Source: a virus
DNA length: 64,000 nt
Virus record (IMG/VR): IMGVR_UViG_3300017527_001400
Location: 14,409 to 78,408 of that record
Reading direction: 5' to 3' (one strand)
Part shown: positions 1 to 15,015 of the stretch, one piece after another
How the letters are laid out: each line of letters starts with the position of its first letter
How positions within the stretch are numbered: position 1 is the stretch's first letter
Notes under the pieces: model-generated
Told to the model about the DNA's origin: nothing
What the model saw: only the letters and a program-made list of their open reading frames with translations
Databases searched by the model: none
Program-made: the position numbers and the translations under genes

Positions 1-437
1 CACCTATATCCCAGCGATCTGATATTAATCGGATGAAAGCTGCTGAAGGCCTGGCTATCTTACTTCGGGAAATTTGCACAGAGATCCAGATTATATCTTT
101 CTCTTATCATCCTGTGAATGTTCCTAACAGGAGAGGTTTTGCCCTCGGAGAAGCGATCACGAGGTCTCAGGACAACGGTGGAACCAACTTTGGTGAAGCT
201 GTTTCTCAGGCATATAATATCCCTCATGATCGGTTAATTGCCATCACAGACGAACAATCTCATGATCGTGTGCCTGATCCTAAACATGGCATTCCTTCTT
301 ATGTGATTAACGTTGCTTCATATCAAAATGGCGTTGGTTACGGGCCTTGGACACATATCGATGGTTGGTCTGAAAATGTTGTTCGATATATCCAGTCGCT
401 GGAGGGACTCGATGCACATAGTAAAAATGACATGTAG
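1..437 (+). CDS. TROVE/Ro60 (Rsr)-like RNA-binding protein, C-terminal vWA part (5'-truncated by window)
   Basis: Frame open from window start (PISQRSDINRMKAAEGLAIL); motifs GGTNFG, DRLIAITDEQSHD, YVINVASYQNGVGYGPWTHIDGWSE match the C-terminus of bacterial/phage TROVE proteins. Confidence 0.8.
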   Translation, partial: PISQRSDINRMKAAEGLAILLREICTEIQIISFSYHPVNVPNRRGFALGEAITRSQDNGGTNFGEAVSQAYNIPHDRLIAITDEQSHDRVPDPKHGIPSYVINVASYQNGVGYGPWTHIDGWSENVVRYIQSLEGLDAHSKNDM

Positions 438-1169: not shown

Positions 1170-1445
1170 ATGACATCAAAACAAGTTGATAGATTAATTG
1201 AAGAAATCGGCAATGTTGCATATAACTTAAAATATTTAGGAAATGGAAATGCTTCAACTCAATTTGGAGCAATTGAAGGCCATTCAATGCAAGTAAAGGA
1301 AGGGCTTGAAACCTTAGCCTCTGCAGTTTCAAGTGCTGGAGGAGAAATAAACATAAGTGATTTACCAACTGCAATCGAGGGTGCTGGTAGAGATATTAAA
1401 GATGGGCTGCTATCCATAGCGGCTGCGATAAATGATGCGGGGTAA
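1170..1445 (+). CDS. hypothetical protein
   Basis: AAGGA RBS, 91 aa; stop codon lies inside the tRNA-Met 5' end. Confidence 0.6.
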   Translation: MTSKQVDRLIEEIGNVAYNLKYLGNGNASTQFGAIEGHSMQVKEGLETLASAVSSAGGEINISDLPTAIEGAGRDIKDGLLSIAAAINDAG

Positions 1446-1514
1446 GGTAGTCTGGTCTAACCTAGGTGTCTCATAAGCACCTCTTCGCGGGTTCAAATCC
1501 CGCCCCCGCTTCCA
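1436..1514 (+). tRNA. tRNA-Met(CAT), possibly initiator-like
   Basis: GCGGGG/CCCCGC acceptor with 1:72 mismatch, anticodon arm GGTGT-CTCATAA-GCACC, T arm GCGGG-TTCAAAT-CCCGC, encoded CCA. Confidence 0.88.
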
Positions 1515-1836: not shown

Positions 1837-2589
1837 ATGAAAAAGAAAGCACCAGGACCGTACACATTCAGAATTGTTGGACAGGCAGATTCCGCGTGGC
1901 GCGGGGCAGTACCGGACGATTGTGCAGATCTCAAAGTTGCACCCGAGAAAAATGTAAAGGAGCTCCTTTACATGATCGTCAAGGCAGAAGTTGAAAGACT
2001 CACACAAAAGGGTGATACAAAGGGGGCAGCTGAGGCTGTCAAAAAGTATCAAGATCATTCAAAACATCAATATGCGAATCCATTGAATGTTTTCAAAAAA
2101 GACAAGCAAAACGGTGATATCCCATGTATCGGTGCTCATTGTCTTTATGGTGGGTTTCGTGATGCTGCCGTTGAGCTTTTCCCGCAGTATTTCTATAAAA
2201 CTGCTGCAGACCGTGGCAAAAAGCCATCGAACAAGCATCTTAGAAAATATGTTCATGTCCGTCCTTATCATGTTTTCTTGCATCGGCCTTCAATGAATGG
2301 TAATGGTAAGATTATAAAAGAAGTGGATGGTGTTCATGATCAACATCCTACGCCAAAAGTCGGGGCCTTTTGTCGTTATGAATTTATTGATTCTCCATTT
2401 CAATTTGAATATCTTCTAAATGTTTCCATCGAAGGCCCCTTCAAAAAGTTCCTGGAAAATCAACACGAAGTTAAAATGGCAATCGTTCAATCAGCAAATG
2501 CCGGTCAAGGCGGCGGAAGGGCAGCAGGTTATGGAATGTGGAGGATACTCAAGTGCAAGGTTGAAGATGGCCTGTCGTATACGCCGTAA
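1837..2589 (+). CDS. solitary Cas7/Csm3-like RAMP protein
   Basis: AAGGAG RBS; PCIGAHCLYGGFRDAA resembles the RAMP P-x-I-P-G-S-S-L-K-G-x-x-R motif; C-terminal glycine loop GQGGGRAAGYGMWRI; no other cas genes in window. Confidence 0.75.
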   Translation: MKKKAPGPYTFRIVGQADSAWRGAVPDDCADLKVAPEKNVKELLYMIVKAEVERLTQKGDTKGAAEAVKKYQDHSKHQYANPLNVFKKDKQNGDIPCIGAHCLYGGFRDAAVELFPQYFYKTAADRGKKPSNKHLRKYVHVRPYHVFLHRPSMNGNGKIIKEVDGVHDQHPTPKVGAFCRYEFIDSPFQFEYLLNVSIEGPFKKFLENQHEVKMAIVQSANAGQGGGRAAGYGMWRILKCKVEDGLSYTP

Positions 2590-2626: not shown

Positions 2627-2821
2627 ATGTCAAAGATCACTGACACGCTAACAGATGCTGCAGATAAGGTTCTCAATGGTGAAATTCCATTGAAAACCGG
2701 TGAAGTCGTTCATAAACTGGGCAATTCGCTTGGAGTCGCAAAAAACTCCGAGTGTCGTGCACAGGAAATTGGACTGGAAGACGACACAAAAGCCGCACTG
2801 GATGCCATCAAAACAGAGTAA
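2627..2821 (+). CDS. small protein between RAMP gene and array (candidate accessory subunit)
   Basis: AAGGAG RBS, 64 aa (MSKITDTLTDAADKVL...). Confidence 0.7.
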   Translation: MSKITDTLTDAADKVLNGEIPLKTGEVVHKLGNSLGVAKNSECRAQEIGLEDDTKAALDAIKTE

Positions 2822-2831
2822 ACGGAAACCT

Positions 2832-2859
2832 TGGGTAAGCGGCAATTGCCGTTTACCCA
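2832..2859 (+). promoter_or_regulatory. GC-rich hairpin at the 5' boundary of the periodic array
   Basis: TGGGTAAGCGGCAATTGCCGTTTACCCA near-perfect palindrome, no U-tract. Confidence 0.55.
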
Positions 2860-2865
2860 TGTCTT

Positions 2866-4135
2866 CCTATCCTGTGTTGTTCGATAGTATGCATTTAGAT
2901 ACCATAGACTCGTATTTTATTCATAAGAAATGTCATACGGTTCCGTTCGATCCCTTATCTCAGGATCCGATAATATGCTATGCATTATAGAATTTGCCTT
3001 GCTTAGGTAGCATATGTTTCTATTTGATCAATGATTGATTCAATACCATCGAATTGAGTCCTCTGTGATACAATGTAATAGAATAAATGTATTTAATATC
3101 ATTGCATGGAGTTCGATAAGCTTCCATCAAATCATATGCATTATTTTATTAACTGGAATTGAAAAAGATCCCTTCGCATGGAATGTATAGTCCGCTATAG
3201 TACCGTTCCATAATACACGATGCTATGCTTTTGAATAAATAATTTGATCTAGTAATATTTGATTCCGTGAGATGCTATCTTATATTATGAATTAATCTCA
3301 TCTCATCAGATATTATGCGTTTCGATTCGATTTGATCCGATCTATAATCTCATGCCATATTATATTAATCGATAACTCAAGGTCCGATCCCATTCGATTC
3401 GATGAAATAAAATATTATGCAAAATTAAAATACAATAATTTAGAGTGGGACCGTATTTGAACCTATTCTATTTTATATTATCGCTTTAATACTCAATACC
3501 ATCAGACCGTATTATATGCCTTCGCATCTGATCGTATGACATAATCAATTGCATCGCATGCGATCGCGCATAATTGAACCAAATATTATGGAATCAATAA
3601 TTCAATAACATATCATCAGGCTATATGCCATTGAATATGTTCCGATTTTATCCACCAATAGTATGCCATCGGATAGATTGTTTTGTAATGTCATAATCTG
3701 CCATTCGCAATGTCTTATTTTACAATCGAACATTATGGCTTGGCTTAGTCTTCCATAAAATATATTATTTAATTGGAATTTGATTTTATGCCTTCAAGAA
3801 GTATCCGATCCAATTCATAATTGCATCAGATTTTATACAAATAAATATTGTCTCGTTTAATTCATAAATGTCATCCGTTAATATGGCTTGGAATTTGTTG
3901 CTATAGCTACTTTACGATTCGATAAACAATTCCATATCATCCAAATACATTGAATTATATGCAATTAATAATCAATTAAAATTGTTCCCAGTATTGTTCA
4001 ATTGGATGCGATCAGTTGAAATAAATCATTCCATTTTATATGACTCATTGATATCGCTTTCTATGACATGGAATATTTCTCTTCATAAAATAAAATTAAT
4101 TGGCACATCACGCTTTCTTATGGGATATAATGTTT
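2866..4135 (+). ncRNA. 1.27-kb (AT-NNN)n periodic array, ~23 blocks of ~9-15 pentamers; candidate guide-RNA array
   Basis: No credible ORF; e.g. 3295: ATctc ATctc ATcag ATatt ATgcg TTtcg ATtcg ATttg ATccg ATcta TA ATctc ATgcc ATatt...; phase resets about every 52 nt. Periodicity is seen directly; RNA function is inferred. Confidence 0.75.
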
Positions 4136-4181
4136 TACATTAAACTTTACACACACAATAAAATAAAGGAGGAACAAACTC

Positions 4182-4526: not shown

Positions 4527-4533
4527 AATAAAA

Positions 4534-4807
4534 GCGGGCGTAGCTCAAAGAGGTAATGTCAAAAGGGTGCTTAGCAGAAAGACGTCGACGCTTGACAGAA
4601 GATTAGGACAAGCCAATTTTGGACATTGAGTAGTGGACCAACCAAGACACTGCTGGGTAATACCATCGAGTGCGAGATGGAAATAGTATGCATAGAGGTC
4701 GAGCTTCGTCAGTCTGGATTAACCAGTGATCCGTTCCACAAGTAACTTGGTGCGCTGACAGTTCCATAATAATAGCTGCCTCTCCTATGTCCAATAACGT
4801 CCGACCA
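4534..4807 (+). ncRNA. structured RNA with tRNA-Gly-like ends
   Basis: Starts GCGGGCGTAGCTCAAAGAGG (same as 5314), ends CGTCCGACCA; internal stems TGTCAA/TTGACA, TTGGACAT/ATGTCCAA, CCATC/GATGG, GTCAG/CTGAC. Confidence 0.5.
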
Positions 4808-4835
4808 CAAAGGTTATCATACTGTGTTAAGCTTT

Positions 4836-4911
4836 GTGGCCGGAGGCATACGGGTACGCCGATAGACTGTGGCTCTATTGCAAGTGGGTTCGAGCCCCAC
4901 CGGTCACCCCA
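4836..4911 (+). tRNA. tRNA-His(GTG)
   Basis: GTGGCCG/CGGTCAC acceptor, C73, CCA; anticodon arm ATAGA-CTGTGGC-TCTAT; T loop GGTTCGAGCCC. Confidence 0.85.
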
Positions 4912-5012: not shown

Positions 5013-5312
5013 ATGTCAGCTGATTGGTGTGAAACTTGTGGAAACTTTATGCTCTTCCCAAATTCTCATAAATGTCCTCCAATATTCATGGTTAATGAAC
5101 CTGAATATGATGAAGAATGGTATAAGATAAGAGCGCGTAGCTTTGAGTCAGCTGCTGAAAAATGGGCTGACAAAACAGATGCCGAAGGTGATTATTCAAT
5201 TATCAGTGGCAACGAAACAGAAGTTATTGTTCGCAATGAAGCCGGCGAAATAAAAAAGTTTAAAGTTTTTGGAGAATCTGTACCCGAATATACTGCAACA
5301 GAGATCGAATAA
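5013..5312 (+). CDS. hypothetical protein (N-terminal CxxC/HxC)
   Basis: AAGGAG RBS, 99 aa. Confidence 0.7.
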   Translation: MSADWCETCGNFMLFPNSHKCPPIFMVNEPEYDEEWYKIRARSFESAAEKWADKTDAEGDYSIISGNETEVIVRNEAGEIKKFKVFGESVPEYTATEIE

Positions 5313-5313
5313 A

Positions 5314-5409
5314 GCGGGCGTAGCTCAAAGAGGGGTAAGCGCACCCTTACGATAGAGCGCCGTGCCACCAGCACGGAGGTCGGAGGTTTGACTCCTCCCG
5401 TCCGCTCCA
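5314..5409 (+). tRNA. tRNA-Gly-like RNA with expanded D-loop, anticodon-position ACC
   Basis: GCGGGCG/CGTCCGC acceptor, U73, CCA; GCTC..GAGC D stem enclosing ~27 nt; CCGTG-CCACCAG-CACGG arm; T arm GGAGG-TTTGACT-CCTCC. Confidence 0.65.
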
Positions 5410-8106: not shown

Positions 8107-8229
8107 GGCAGTGTAGACTTTAACCATCAAGGTCGCCGGTTCGGATCCGGCCTGGCCCTCCATAAAAAAACTTATGGGCCAGTAGCTCAGCGGTAGAGCG
8201 TGATGAAATTAGTTTTACTACCACTGTTC
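8107..8229 (+). ncRNA. YrlA-type Y RNA (circularly permuted tRNA mimic)
   Basis: Order CATCA, AGGTC, T arm GCCGG-TTCGGAT-CCGGC, CTGGCCC-loop-GGGCCAG acceptor, TA, D arm GCTC-AGCGGTA-GAGC, TGATG; closed by bulged stem GGCAGTG..TAGACT / AGTTTTA..CACTGTT; TROVE gene in same genome. Confidence 0.78.
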
Positions 8230-8292
8230 ATGAAGCAATGGAGCGTCCCATTTAGCTCTGTACTTGTAATACAGAAAGCAAATAAAATGGAA

Positions 8293-11289: not shown

Positions 11290-11458
11290 ATCTCTGGTGG
11301 GGATATATACACACTAATGATTCAAAGCAGGTGAAGAGGTTTTTCGATTGGCGAGACATCTCTGAAGCCGAGTGCAGTCCTTTTGTTTCCAAGGTTGTGA
11401 AGAAACCCTACTATGCCGAGAATAGGGCTGACGCGTTAATTAAACTCGAGGAGGAATT

Positions 11459-11647
11459 ATGCTAAAACTTGTACTTTACACAATGCCAAAATCAGGACGT
11501 TGGCGATGGAAGCTCATGCGGGCCGATAAATGTCTTGCCCGGGCTGATTATCACTGGGCCAATAAGTCGGCAGCCAAGACAGCCTTCAATGGTCTGGTGA
11601 AAAACATACAAAAGCTAGAAGGTAAGCCCGTCGCAATTGCAGAATAA
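11459..11647 (+). CDS. YegP/DUF1508-like protein
   Basis: GAGGAGG RBS; GRWRWKLM....LA....W.NKSAAK pattern. Confidence 0.55.
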   Translation: MLKLVLYTMPKSGRWRWKLMRADKCLARADYHWANKSAAKTAFNGLVKNIQKLEGKPVAIAE

Positions 11648-13341: not shown

Positions 13342-13350
13342 GGAGCTACC

Positions 13351-15015
13351 ATGACAACATTTCTTCAGGATCTATACAAAGGTAAACCAAACGATCATCA
13401 CATCTTAATATGGACTCTGAAAGGAAAACGCTCCAAATGGTTTAAGACGGTAAAGGAAGCGGAGGACTTCATAAGTGCCAACCCTGATGATACATACTTC
13501 GGGGTTGGCACAAGTATTAAGGACTTCGGACCTTCGAAACGATGCACAAAAAGTAAAATTTCAGGAATTCCCGGGCTATATGTTGACATCGATATAAAGC
13601 CCGATGGCGAAGACAGCAAAGCCCACAAGGGTAAGAAGTATCCCAAAAGTATGAAGGAAGCTCTGTCACTGGTCGAAGGACAGGGCATGGATCCAAGCAT
13701 TATCATAAATAGCGGTTATGGATTACACTGCTATTGGCTATTCGATGATTTCTGGTCATTTGATAATAACGCTGAACGCCAACAAGCTGCAGAGCTCGAA
13801 CAACGTATGAACGCCACGATCTTGAACCGTGCGAAACGCAACGGCATGGCGATAGACAGCGTGTTCGACTTGTCTCGGGTTTTGCGGCCTGCGGGAAGCA
13901 ATAATTGCAAACGCAAAAAGCCTGCTGCAGTGACTGTACAATCAGACAGTGGTAAAAGATATGATCCTCTTGACCTCGAACGTGACCTCGACAAACTCCC
14001 TGACAAAAAAATAAAAGATACACATAGAACTTTCTCAGACATAAAGATAGATCCGGGATTAAAGGTCAATCCAAAGGTAGAGATCAAGGCGGACGATTTA
14101 TTCGAGCTATCAGCACAGCAAGATCAATTCAATGCTACATGGGCAGGTAAACGAGGCTTCAAAAGCCCATCAGAATACGATTTAAGTCTGGCGAATATGG
14201 CTGTAGAAGCCGGATGGAGTGATCAAAAGGTCGTCAACCTGATTATCCATCATCGACGCAAAACCGGAGAGCTTGATCCGGTCAAAATGACTAGAAAAGA
14301 TTATTTTGATCGAACAATAAGACTTGCAAAAGAAGCTGCTAAAAAAAACGAGTTTGAACGGCTTACAGACAAAATCGTGGCAAGCGGGACGATTTTTGAT
14401 CAAAAAACTATTCAAGATGTTACAAATCACATAAATAAGCTGCTAAAACCTCTCAAGTTTGTAGAAATCAGAAAGCATATCAACGAACCAAAAGTAGATT
14501 ATTTTATAGACGTCATTGCACCTGATGGAACGGCTTGGGAGATAAAACTTGAAGGTAGCTTACAAACTAGACTGCTGTTTATAAAAAACCTTCAAGACAG
14601 AACAAATGTACGCCCCAGAATCGGCGTCAAGCAATGGGATGCCTTGTCTCAGGCATTCAGCATCGTTGTTGTAGAGGTTGAGCGATCTCTCCGGATGGAG
14701 CAGATACAAGATGCAACAGTTATCTATGTTGAAAAGTTCATTGCAAATAAAAACGTCAAGCTTAAAGAAGTCTGGTCTTCGGGTCAGCCATTCAAGCATA
14801 AAGGTGAATGGGTCTTAAATGTCAAAAAGTTCCACACATGGTTCACCCTTGCAAACAATGAAGGCGATTACGATCAGAAAAGCCTCAGAGCCGATCTCAA
14901 GGAGGCCGGCTTCAAAGGCATTAACATCTGGCTGGTAGAACATCAAGCAGATGGAAGCTATCTTCGAAAGAAGAAGGCTTATATGAAGATCCCCAAAAGC
15001 TGGCCACTGCCTTAA
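13351..15015 (+). CDS. RepB-type (AEP) DNA primase
   Basis: LYVDID, INSGYGLHCYW, FDLSRVLRPAGSNN, SPSEYDLSLAN motifs. Confidence 0.82.
   Translation: MTTFLQDLYKGKPNDHHILIWTLKGKRSKWFKTVKEAEDFISANPDDTYFGVGTSIKDFGPSKRCTKSKISGIPGLYVDIDIKPDGEDSKAHKGKKYPKSMKEALSLVEGQGMDPSIIINSGYGLHCYWLFDDFWSFDNNAERQQAAELEQRMNATILNRAKRNGMAIDSVFDLSRVLRPAGSNNCKRKKPAAVTVQSDSGKRYDPLDLERDLDKLPDKKIKDTHRTFSDIKIDPGLKVNPKVEIKADDLFELSAQQDQFNATWAGKRGFKSPSEYDLSLANMAVEAGWSDQKVVNLIIHHRRKTGELDPVKMTRKDYFDRTIRLAKEAAKKNEFERLTDKIVASGTIFDQKTIQDVTNHINKLLKPLKFVEIRKHINEPKVDYFIDVIAPDGTAWEIKLEGSLQTRLLFIKNLQDRTNVRPRIGVKQWDALSQAFSIVVVEVERSLRMEQIQDATVIYVEKFIANKNVKLKEVWSSGQPFKHKGEWVLNVKKFHTWFTLANNEGDYDQKSLRADLKEAGFKGINIWLVEHQADGSYLRKKKAYMKIPKSWPLP

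What the first reader, a model, noticed from the sequence alone, without database searches (positions are those of the whole stretch)
2866..4135. Second-level structure: ~23 blocks of ~52 nt delimited by a phase-shifting ATNNA-TW-AT junction
Seen: in-phase AT runs start near 2869, 2930, 2987, 3038, 3091, 3143, 3190, 3242, 3295, 3347, 3430, 3491, 3548, 3600, 3658, 3710, 3767, 3820, 3868, 3929, 3971, 4028 and 4085. Register shifts are mostly +2 and occur at a recurring junction, e.g. ATgca-TT-AT (2980, 3136), ATcta-TA-AT (3340), ATcaa-TA-AT (3593), ATtca-TA-AT (3813), ATtaa-TA-AT (3964 and 1600). Blocks differ in their variable bases, like spacers. Inference: the junction is a processing site or filament boundary yielding ~50-nt unit RNAs, which would make this a multi-guide array rather than a decayed microsatellite.
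Basis: partly seen in the sequence, partly recalled or inferred. Interest (0 to 1): 0.88.

Follow-up and report, generated by a model that had tools for sequence, protein, structure and literature searches.

The report
Phage VIPR-type guide-RNA array, A/U-handle variant
The 1.3-kb "AT every five bases" stretch is an array of about 24 short guide RNAs belonging to a phage VIPR system (a CRISPR-related RNA-guided DNA binder first described in 2026), and one guide spells, two bases in three, the catalytic motif of the primase-helicase gene of other phages.

Summary
AT recurs every 5 nt (z = 13.5 against shuffles). The phase breaks every 52 ± 11 nt, mostly by +2, at an ATNNATNAT junction.

The array flanks a lone Cas7-like RAMP gene (1837-2589) and a conserved 64-aa gene (2627-2821). 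All 13 related lineages I could fetch have the same R-T-N-N-N arrays beside these two genes.

This is the layout of VIPR systems (bioRxiv 10.64898/2026.04.26.720920 and .720927): one Vipr protomer per pentamer, fixed bases hidden, variable bases read against DNA with every third target base skipped.

I tested that rule. The block 3600-3654 (11 pentamers, positions 3-4 of each, one skip) has 8 exact matches in IMG/VR. All lie in codon register, antisense, on the DSGNGIHAYWM(L/F)D motif of a ~950-aa primase-helicase. The match stops exactly at both junctions. Three other guides gave no exact match.

So the blocks are guides and the junctions are guide boundaries. RNA ends were not mapped.

It differs from published VIPRs in three ways:
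- the fixed dinucleotide is A/G-U instead of GGY;
- there is no structured 3' tail;
- no sequence similarity to the SUSP1 Vipr was detected.

This scan has already filed similar "A-T type" VIPR arrays in other genomes.

The parts
1436..1514 (+). tRNA-Met (CAT); its 3' end abuts the upstream array
   Evidence: ARAGORN; Rfam tRNA 49.5 bits
1515..1836 (+). Upstream guide array 'a': 4 phase blocks (starts 1515, 1604, 1673, 1730), all shifts +2. It runs into the ribosome-binding site of the RAMP gene.
   Evidence: Periodicity z = 5.3; segmentation; spectral peak 5.15-5.16 nt
1837..2589 (+). vipr-like gene: lone Cas7-type RAMP protein, 250 aa (P0001), with an inserted helical hairpin (residues 34-79) and the C-terminal glycine-rich loop GGGRAAGYGMW
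   Evidence: AF2 model pLDDT 91. Foldseek PDB top hits are all Csm3/Cmr4/type VII Cas7, probability 1.0. VIA-align: the top 40 are all RAMP subunits, led by Cas7-type backbone proteins, Z 12.8 down to about 7. Virus-specific family: 49 representatives at 50% identity; Atlas clusters 92-100% viral.
2627..2821 (+). Conserved 64-aa three-helix accessory gene (p64), candidate vap-like partner
   Evidence: Homologues in 11 of the 12 related lineages, always downstream of the RAMP gene on the same strand; in L018 the contig ends at the RAMP gene. AF2 model pLDDT 82, three helices. No fold or family match.
2833..2858 (+). GC-rich hairpin without a T-run, between the p64 stop codon and the start of array 'b'. 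A similar hairpin follows p64 in L005.
   Evidence: Sequence; palindrome I2; L005 sequence; no terminator call
2861..4140 (+). Downstream guide array 'b': 24 blocks of 7-15 pentamers (R-T-N-N-N) separated by phase-shifting junctions
3600..3654 (+). Verified guide: 11 pentamers. Positions 3-4 of each, read with one skipped base, match a primase-helicase gene in 8 viral contigs.
   Evidence: pattern; 8 exact hits; codon register, antisense, GNGIHAYWM[L/F]D; match ends at both junctions; target carries DUF927
3593..3601 (+). Example of the ATNNATNAT junction (ATCAATAAT) immediately 5' of the verified guide. The others start at 2980, 3027, 3136, 3235, 3340, 3760, 3813, 3964 and 4021.
   Evidence: junction alignment
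13342..15015 (+). The phage's own primase-domain gene. Its motif GYGLHCYWLFD (13714-13746) matches the guide at only 17 of 22 read positions, so it is spared.

Best explanation
The two AT-periodic stretches are the guide-RNA arrays of a divergent VIPR (Viral Interference Programmable Repeat) system.

By analogy with the published cryo-EM work, one protomer of the lone RAMP protein (1837-2589) grips each pentamer of the transcript. Pentamer positions 1-2 (purine, then U) correspond to G2-Y3 of the canonical GGY handle and are held by the protein. Position 5 corresponds to a degenerate G1. Positions 3-4 are the free NN bases that pair with target DNA, with every third target base skipped.

Each in-phase run of about 8-13 pentamers is one guide. 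The 7-nt junction (AT spaced 4 then 3, net +2) breaks the register, so one filament ends and the next begins. The array is therefore a head-to-tail string of about 28 tail-less guides (4 upstream, 24 downstream).

At least one guide is aimed at the catalytic motif of the primase-helicase of other phages, and the phage's own primase is mismatched. This fits the inter-phage silencing role shown for VIPR.

Shown here:
- the periodic anatomy;
- its conservation beside the RAMP and p64 genes;
- the RAMP fold;
- the skip-one reading rule for one guide;
- the coincidence of target-match ends with the junctions.

Inferred from the published systems:
- transcription of the array;
- protomer-per-pentamer binding;
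- DNA binding and silencing.

Open: whether the junction is cut, and by what.
For: Anatomy.

Pentamer logo: position 1 is A 0.62 / G 0.19 / T 0.15, position 2 is T 0.78, positions 3-5 are near uniform. There are 152 distinct pentamers among 294.

The polarity (GT far more common than AC at the fixed positions) is the same relative to the RAMP gene in all loci.

The RNA is unstructured on either strand, z about 0, as expected of a protein-coated guide.

RAMP fold.

Association: arrays sit beside the RAMP gene in every lineage, and p64 is conserved beside it. Other neighbouring genes differ between loci.

Published VIPR features:
- a lone RAMP with a helical bundle, plus a vap gene;
- arrays on both sides of vipr;
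- 9-16 pentamers per vrRNA;
- frequent internal degeneracy;
- alternative YNNNG and NNNGG repeats;
- staggered tail-less arrays;
- non-canonical WGT/NN-type units.

The internal degeneracy is seen here too. Canonical AT is 0.8-0.9 at block edges and 0.3-0.5 in mid-block, against about 0.41-0.56 in a segmentation control.

Reading rule: the pattern TCNAANATNCANTANGCNTGNATNCCNTTNCC (22 specified bases) gave 8 exact hits in IMG/VR. Three 20-base guide patterns gave 0 hits in the same collection. All 8 hits are in codon register with the skips on wobble bases. They lie in a DUF927 primase-helicase. The match is 2/2 over exactly units 1-11 and falls to 0-1/2 in the in-phase units beyond both junctions.

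No self-target was found: the best match to the own genome and to relatives is at chance level, and the own primase matches at 17/22.

The SUSP1 VIPR locus shows the same gene-between-arrays layout with GG at lag 5.
Against: No significant sequence or profile similarity to the SUSP1 Vipr (hhalign E 0.21; tblastn against phages found none), nor of p64 to vap1. Homology to published Viprs therefore rests on fold class and architecture.

There is no conserved structured 3' tail, which type II vrRNAs have.

The fixed bases are A/G-U, a consensus not listed in the preprints I read.

Only 1 of 4 guides tried has an exact target. None of the other 26 segmented blocks of the window matches the 57 kb fetched around the 8 targets.

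A codon-position likelihood test favoured positions 3-4 only weakly.

Expression, RNA ends and protein-RNA binding are untested.
Confidence: 0.85

Rival explanations
1. The arrays are a non-guiding scaffold or sponge RNA. The RAMP protein coats the periodic RNA (5 nt per protomer), for example for autoregulation or sequestration, and the variable bases carry no targeting information.
For: The variable bases are near random, and adjacent blocks are no more alike than distant ones. Array 'a' reaches the RAMP ribosome-binding site. Most guides tried have no exact target.
Against: A 22-of-22 gapped match to 8 foreign genes, in codon register and bounded by the junctions, is not expected of neutral sequence. 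Three other patterns gave 0 hits in the same collection.
Confidence: 0.07
2. The periodicity acts on double-stranded DNA, for example as binding sites phased to half a helical turn (5.2 bp) for p64 or another protein (centromere-like or nucleoid-like), unrelated to RNA.
For: The mean period in this window is 5.20 nt, half of 10.4. The arrays flank a small helical protein gene, as some partition centromeres do.
Against: The mean period is not conserved. It is 5.15-5.20 in the window, L005 and L017. It is 5.05-5.11 in L012 and L013, and 4.83 in L003. The adjacent protein has an RNA-binding RAMP fold. The one-skip target match has no explanation under this reading.
Confidence: 0.03
3. A decayed (ATNNN)n microsatellite without function.
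For: Short-period repeat; AT-rich; not detected by TRF.
Against: Junction spacing is far more regular than random indels give (CV 0.22 against 0.72). The junction motif is enriched about 9-fold. The pattern is kept in 13 lineages while the variable bases turn over. A target match was found.
Confidence: 0.01

Closest known systems
Type II VIPR of Escherichia phage SUSP1 (Vipr YP_009199429 + vap1 + four vrRNAs); bioRxiv 10.64898/2026.04.26.720920, 10.64898/2026.04.26.720927 and 10.64898/2026.10.15.759431
   Same: Both have:
- a phage-borne lone RAMP gene plus one small accessory gene, with pentamer-repeat arrays on both sides (SUSP1 locus checked);
- about 9-16 pentamers per guide;
- two variable bases per pentamer read with a one-base skip on codon wobble positions;
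- targets in competing mobile elements;
- no self-targeting.
   Different: Here the fixed bases are A/G-U with a loose third base, not GGY. There is no ~40-nt pseudoknot tail. There are about 28 guides packed head to tail rather than 4. The protein is 250 aa, against 195 aa. No significant profile similarity was found.
Alternative VIPR repeat classes (YNNNG, NNNGG, NNNNG), staggered tail-less arrays (Methods and Fig. S18 legend of 10.64898/2026.04.26.720920) and the non-canonical WGT/NN, TGH/NN, GAC/NN units of 10.64898/2026.10.21.760802
   Same: YNNNG has a fixed purine-pyrimidine dinucleotide (G-Y) plus three looser bases, which is the layout seen here (R-T-N-N-N). In GC-richer relatives GT makes up about 23% of units, counted as in-phase dinucleotides GT 113 of 485 in L003b/L004/L009. 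Staggered arrays also lack tails, and one guide's end marks the next guide's start.
   Different: An A-U handle and the ATNNATNAT (4+3) junction are not described in the text I could read. The figures were not available, so identity with a published type cannot be excluded.
Cas7 backbone filaments of class 1 CRISPR effectors (Csm3, Cmr4, Csf2)
   Same: Same RAMP fold (Z up to 12.8) and a glycine-rich loop. Oligomerisation along a guide RNA is inferred.
   Different: The step is 5 nt, not 6. There are no CRISPR repeats or spacers and no cas1, cas2, cas5, cas6 or cas10 nearby. The system is encoded by a virus.

Membership tests
VIPR system | Lone RAMP protein (RRM core, glycine-rich loop, thumb, helical bundle) outside any CRISPR-Cas locus | tested here: met
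   Confident model (pLDDT 91). The best structural matches are all RAMP subunits, led by Cas7-type backbone proteins. The model has an inserted helical hairpin at residues 34-79 and a G-rich loop. No cas genes or CRISPR repeats lie nearby. The thumb was not examined separately.
VIPR system | Sequence or profile homology to a published Vipr protein | tested here: inconclusive
   hhalign of the 41-sequence family profile against the SUSP1 Vipr gave E 0.21, aligning only the G-loop (GVGDWR against GYGMWR). tblastn against phage records found no match. The preprint itself says RAMPs share little sequence similarity. The seed protein X1U2U4 was not available to compare.
VIPR system | Tandem pentanucleotide repeats with fixed and hypervariable positions in the intergenic regions flanking vipr | tested here: met
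   The fixed part is R-T (A/G, U), not GGY.
VIPR system | About 9-16 repeats per guide | tested here: met
   21 blocks in the window have 8-13 pentamers, with modes at 9-10. The verified guide has 11.
VIPR system | Variable dinucleotides specify a target with a one-nucleotide skip, mostly on codon wobble positions | tested here: met
   Guide 3600-3654 gave 8 exact 22-of-22 matches in IMG/VR, in codon register. This was shown for one guide only. Three other guides had no exact match in viral contigs, and one of them none in genome contigs.
VIPR system | No self-targeting | tested here: met
   The best one-skip matches to the own genome and to related loci equal the shuffled controls, and none reaches 0.9. 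The own primase matches at 17/22.
VIPR system | Accessory vap gene beside vipr | tested here: inconclusive
   A 64-aa gene is conserved beside the RAMP gene. It shows no similarity to vap1, no family or fold match, and its DNA-binding character is not shown.
VIPR type II (SUSP1-like) | Invariant structured 3' tail (pseudoknot) after each repeat tract | tested here: not met
   Blocks abut through a 7-nt junction. There is no conserved ~40-nt element, and folding z-scores are about 0.
VIPR system | vrRNAs are expressed and co-purify with Vipr; target transcription is repressed | not testable with these tools
   No sequencing run was listed for this DNA.
CRISPR-Cas | Direct repeats alternating with spacers, plus cas adaptation and effector genes | tested here: not met
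   No repeat-spacer array. Only a single RAMP gene is present.

The most novel reading that the evidence does not exclude
This is a separate, virus-wide VIPR lineage. At least 30 large Atlas clusters and 49 representatives at 50% identity show no detectable sequence tie to SUSP1 Vipr. It uses an A/G-U handle and strings dozens of tail-less guides head to tail. Guide boundaries would be written only as a register slip (ATNNATNAT, AT spaced 4 then 3) instead of an RNA structure or a ribozyme. Guide length would then be set by the protein filament reading the register, and the slip itself could be the processing or capping signal.
Probability: 0.45. Interest if true: 0.7.

Novelty: new variant of a known kind. 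Interest (0 to 1): 0.6.

Why it matters
VIPR systems were described only in 2026, and the experiments rest on GGY-handle, tailed guides from two type II systems.

This locus shows that the one-skip code also holds for an A/U-handle array without tails. It offers a natural guide-target pair, a rival phage's primase-helicase catalytic motif, for testing. It also points to a simple sequence mark, a 4+3 register slip, as the guide delimiter in long arrays. Handle recognition by a different G-loop (GYGMW instead of GVGDW) could widen the design space of these small programmable DNA binders.

For annotation, callers that look for GGY would miss this family. Tandem Repeats Finder and Rfam saw nothing in the array, and Pfam and PHROGs gave no hit for the RAMP or p64 proteins.

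Tried and rejected
Helical phasing of dsDNA. The 5.2-nt mean period looked like half of 10.4, but the mean period varies from 4.83 to 5.20 among relatives.

A TRAP-like ring wrapping each block. The number of units per block varies from 8 to 13, and the idea became unnecessary once VIPR was found.

Other decodings of the variable bases. None beat shuffled controls:
- all three variable bases read contiguously, or with a two-base gap, against the own genome and against 177 kb of related loci;
- positions 4-5 plus one skip.

The codon-position likelihood test was too weak to fix the rule.

Selection against off-register AT was not seen.

Similarity between adjacent blocks was not above background.

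Searches that returned nothing:
- Rfam and Tandem Repeats Finder;
- megablast and tblastn against phage records;
- Genome contigs for RAMP relatives;
- Viral contigs for close p64 relatives.

Promoter and terminator scans were not above shuffles.

Tools that gave no usable result:
The contigs of the closest relatives (P0002, P0003, P0054, P0055, and an 87-kb contig with an identical RAMP gene) could not be fetched, so block-wise gain or loss among close relatives was not examined.
- The 98-99% identical contigs L001-3 and L006-8 have no differences in their arrays.
- The look-up of sequencing runs listed no run.
- Complex prediction for RAMP + p64 gave no verdict.
- The fold search for p64 found nothing informative.

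The integrase-like reading of guide 3487 (STQRYARLRD) gave no exact match in genome or viral contigs.

Full report
**1. The observation**

The stretch 2866-4135 has no open reading frame longer than 53 aa and is 32% G+C.

AT dinucleotides recur at 5-nt spacing. There are 96 pairs at lag 5, against about 30 at other lags, and the excess continues to lag 35. Against 1000 dinucleotide-preserving shuffles the lag 5+10+15 count is 252 versus 120 +/- 9.8, z = 13.5.

A sliding scan of the window finds the signal in two places only, about 1515-1815 and 2830-4140. The same scan of the whole 78-kb virus record adds one weak stretch outside the window.

Junction spacing is 52.5 +/- 11.5 nt. This is much more regular than simulated arrays with randomly placed shifts (CV 0.22 against a mean of 0.72 and a minimum of 0.41).

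Thirteen of 23 shifts are +2. A model-free lag profile shows the same +2 drift at lags of about 45 and 100.

**2. Surroundings**

Between the two periodic stretches lie two genes on the + strand.

The first (1837-2589, 250 aa) has no Pfam or PHROG hit. It gives a confident model (pLDDT 91). Its structural neighbours are all RAMP subunits of CRISPR effectors, led by the Cas7-type backbone proteins Csm3, Cmr4, Csf2, the type VII Cas7 and the Cas7 domains of gRAMP. Foldseek gives probability 1.0 and VIA-align gives Z 12.8 down to about 7 for the top 40. Profile searches touch only the glycine-rich loop of Csm3/Csm4. The family is compact (49 representatives at 50% identity) and almost entirely viral.

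The second gene (2627-2821, 64 aa) folds as three helices and has no informative match.

I fetched 18 related loci, which represent 12 further lineages. Every lineage has a purine-T-N-N-N periodic stretch directly beside the RAMP gene. A homologue of the 64-aa gene lies downstream on the same strand in the 11 whose fetched DNA extends past the RAMP gene. Other neighbours differ: MCM, AAA_24, UvrD, HD-OB, AntA or tail sheath.

The arrays cannot be aligned between loci whose RAMP genes are 70-75% identical in DNA. The variable bases therefore turn over quickly while the frame is kept.

**3. Anatomy of the repeat**

- Position 1 is A > G > T and rarely C. Position 2 is T. Positions 3-5 are close to uniform.
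- GC-richer relatives use GT in place of AT in up to 23% of units, counted as in-phase dinucleotides in L003b/L004/L009.
- GT greatly outnumbers AC at the fixed positions in every lineage, so the motif has the same polarity as the genes.
- Neither strand folds better than shuffled sequence.
- Canonical AT is strongest next to the junctions (0.8-0.9) and weakest in mid-block (0.3-0.5). A segmentation control does not reproduce this gradient.
- The +2 junction is shared by the window, L005 and L017, which sit on both sides of the RAMP tree. Other lineages break phase by +1 or -1 at similar spacing. That variation rules out a fixed 5.2-bp helical constraint.
- In L017 the block starts carry an explicit 20-nt motif (GAAGTTTATATA...), and one 67-nt unit is tandemly duplicated.

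**4. What is known**

My own literature searches with descriptive terms found nothing. The scan's earlier notes on other genomes named VIPR systems, and I then read the preprints.

VIPR consists of a lone phage-encoded RAMP (Vipr), an accessory vap gene, and vrRNAs encoded on both sides of vipr. Each vrRNA has 9-16 pentamers in which GGY is fixed and NN is variable.

Cryo-EM shows one protomer per pentamer. The GGY bases are flipped into the protein by the thumb, the G-loop and helix 1. A helical bundle handles the skipped target base. The NN bases pair with DNA in which every third base is skipped.

The preprints also report:
- natural targets in competing phages and satellites, mostly in codon register with the skip on the wobble base, and no self-targeting;
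- alternative YNNNG, NNNGG and NNNNG repeats, and frequent internal degeneracy;
- staggered tail-less arrays and ribozyme-separated arrays.

A later preprint adds non-canonical units such as WGT/NN.

I located the SUSP1 locus (L020 27500-29510). It has GG at lag 5 in both intergenic regions flanking a 195-aa and a 146-aa gene.

**5. Test of the reading rule**

I mapped purine-T onto G2-Y3 of the canonical handle. This makes positions 3-4 the NN pair.

Guide 3600-3654, written as NN-skip (22 specified bases), has 8 exact matches in IMG/VR. For a collection of the order of 10^11 bases I estimate about 0.01 expected by chance. The collection size is my assumption, not a measured figure. Three other guides written the same way (20 specified bases each) gave 0 matches.

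All 8 matches are antisense to an open frame of up to about 950 aa (shorter where the fetched stretch cuts it) and fall on the motif DS-GNGIHAYWM(L/F)-D. The DNA differs among the hits only at the skipped wobble bases. The protein carries DUF927. Its N-terminal domain is a distant homologue (21-30% identity) of this phage's own primase-domain gene.

The match is perfect over units 1-11 and drops to chance in the in-phase units just beyond both junctions, in all 8 targets. The phage's own motif (GYGLHCYWLFD at 13714-13746) matches at 17 of 22 positions.

No guide matches the own genome or the related loci above the shuffled controls.

**6. Conclusion**

The blocks are guides and the junctions are guide boundaries. 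The locus is a VIPR-type system with an A/G-U handle and tail-less, head-to-tail guides.

Membership by sequence in the published Vipr family could not be shown. hhalign gave E 0.21, aligning only GVGDWR with GYGMWR in the G-loop. In that alignment the tryptophan that stacks on G2 is kept and the aspartate that reads G1 is not. This would fit a changed handle, but it is an inference from an alignment that is not significant.

Not established:
- whether the junction is cut;
- what p64 does;
- what the other guides target.

**7. Limits**

- No sequencing run was listed.
- The complex prediction gave no verdict.
- Collection scans accept exact patterns only, so guides with one or two mismatches to their targets could not be found.
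- The figures of the preprints were not available, so a published type with this exact consensus cannot be excluded.

Noticed in passing
window 3-437 and 8108-8230: The window opens with the C-terminal part of a Ro60/TROVE-like RNA-binding protein (PHROG 850, E 3.7e-8). A YrlA-like (Y RNA-like) match lies 8 kb downstream (41 bits, below Rfam's gathering score of 69). Together they could be a phage Ro-Y RNA module.
   Followed up: no
window 4527-4835 and 5312-5406: The 22-nt start of the tRNA at 5314-5406 (AAGCGGGCGTAGCTCAAAGAGG) is repeated at 4527. It is followed there by about 300 nt with no tRNA or intron call before tRNA-His at 4836. This could be a split or intron-bearing tRNA.
   Followed up: no
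virus record G000 C1 8301-8600 (about 6 kb upstream of the window): A third, weak stretch with AT at 5-nt spacing (excess 11 on the same scale as the arrays, which reach 40). It could be a solo guide.
   Followed up: no
L017 1400-2110: In this relative the guide blocks begin with an explicit 20-nt motif (GAAGTTTATATA...), seen at 6 starts or more. One 67-nt unit is tandemly duplicated at 87% identity, so arrays can grow by duplication of a guide unit.
   Followed up: partly
L013 11690-11850: The array of this relative is followed by two tRNA-like T-arm sequences (GGTTCGATTCC...). In the window tRNA-Met abuts array 'a'. Guides may use tRNA processing to define an end.
   Followed up: no
window 3490-3539: This guide, read by the one-skip rule in sense, gives S-T-(H/Q)-R-Y-A-R-L-R-(D/E), one base from the tyrosine-integrase motif TQRYAHLRD. 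No exact match was found in genome or viral contigs, so the reading is unconfirmed.
   Followed up: partly
L004 about 11302-11463, L008 5807-5869, L009 1090-1164, L011 about 1500-1620: About 50-70 nt upstream of the p64 start are conserved among four lineages (they read through as ...LTQNQI.LWRCK...). This is either an N-terminal extension or a conserved RNA element.
   Followed up: no
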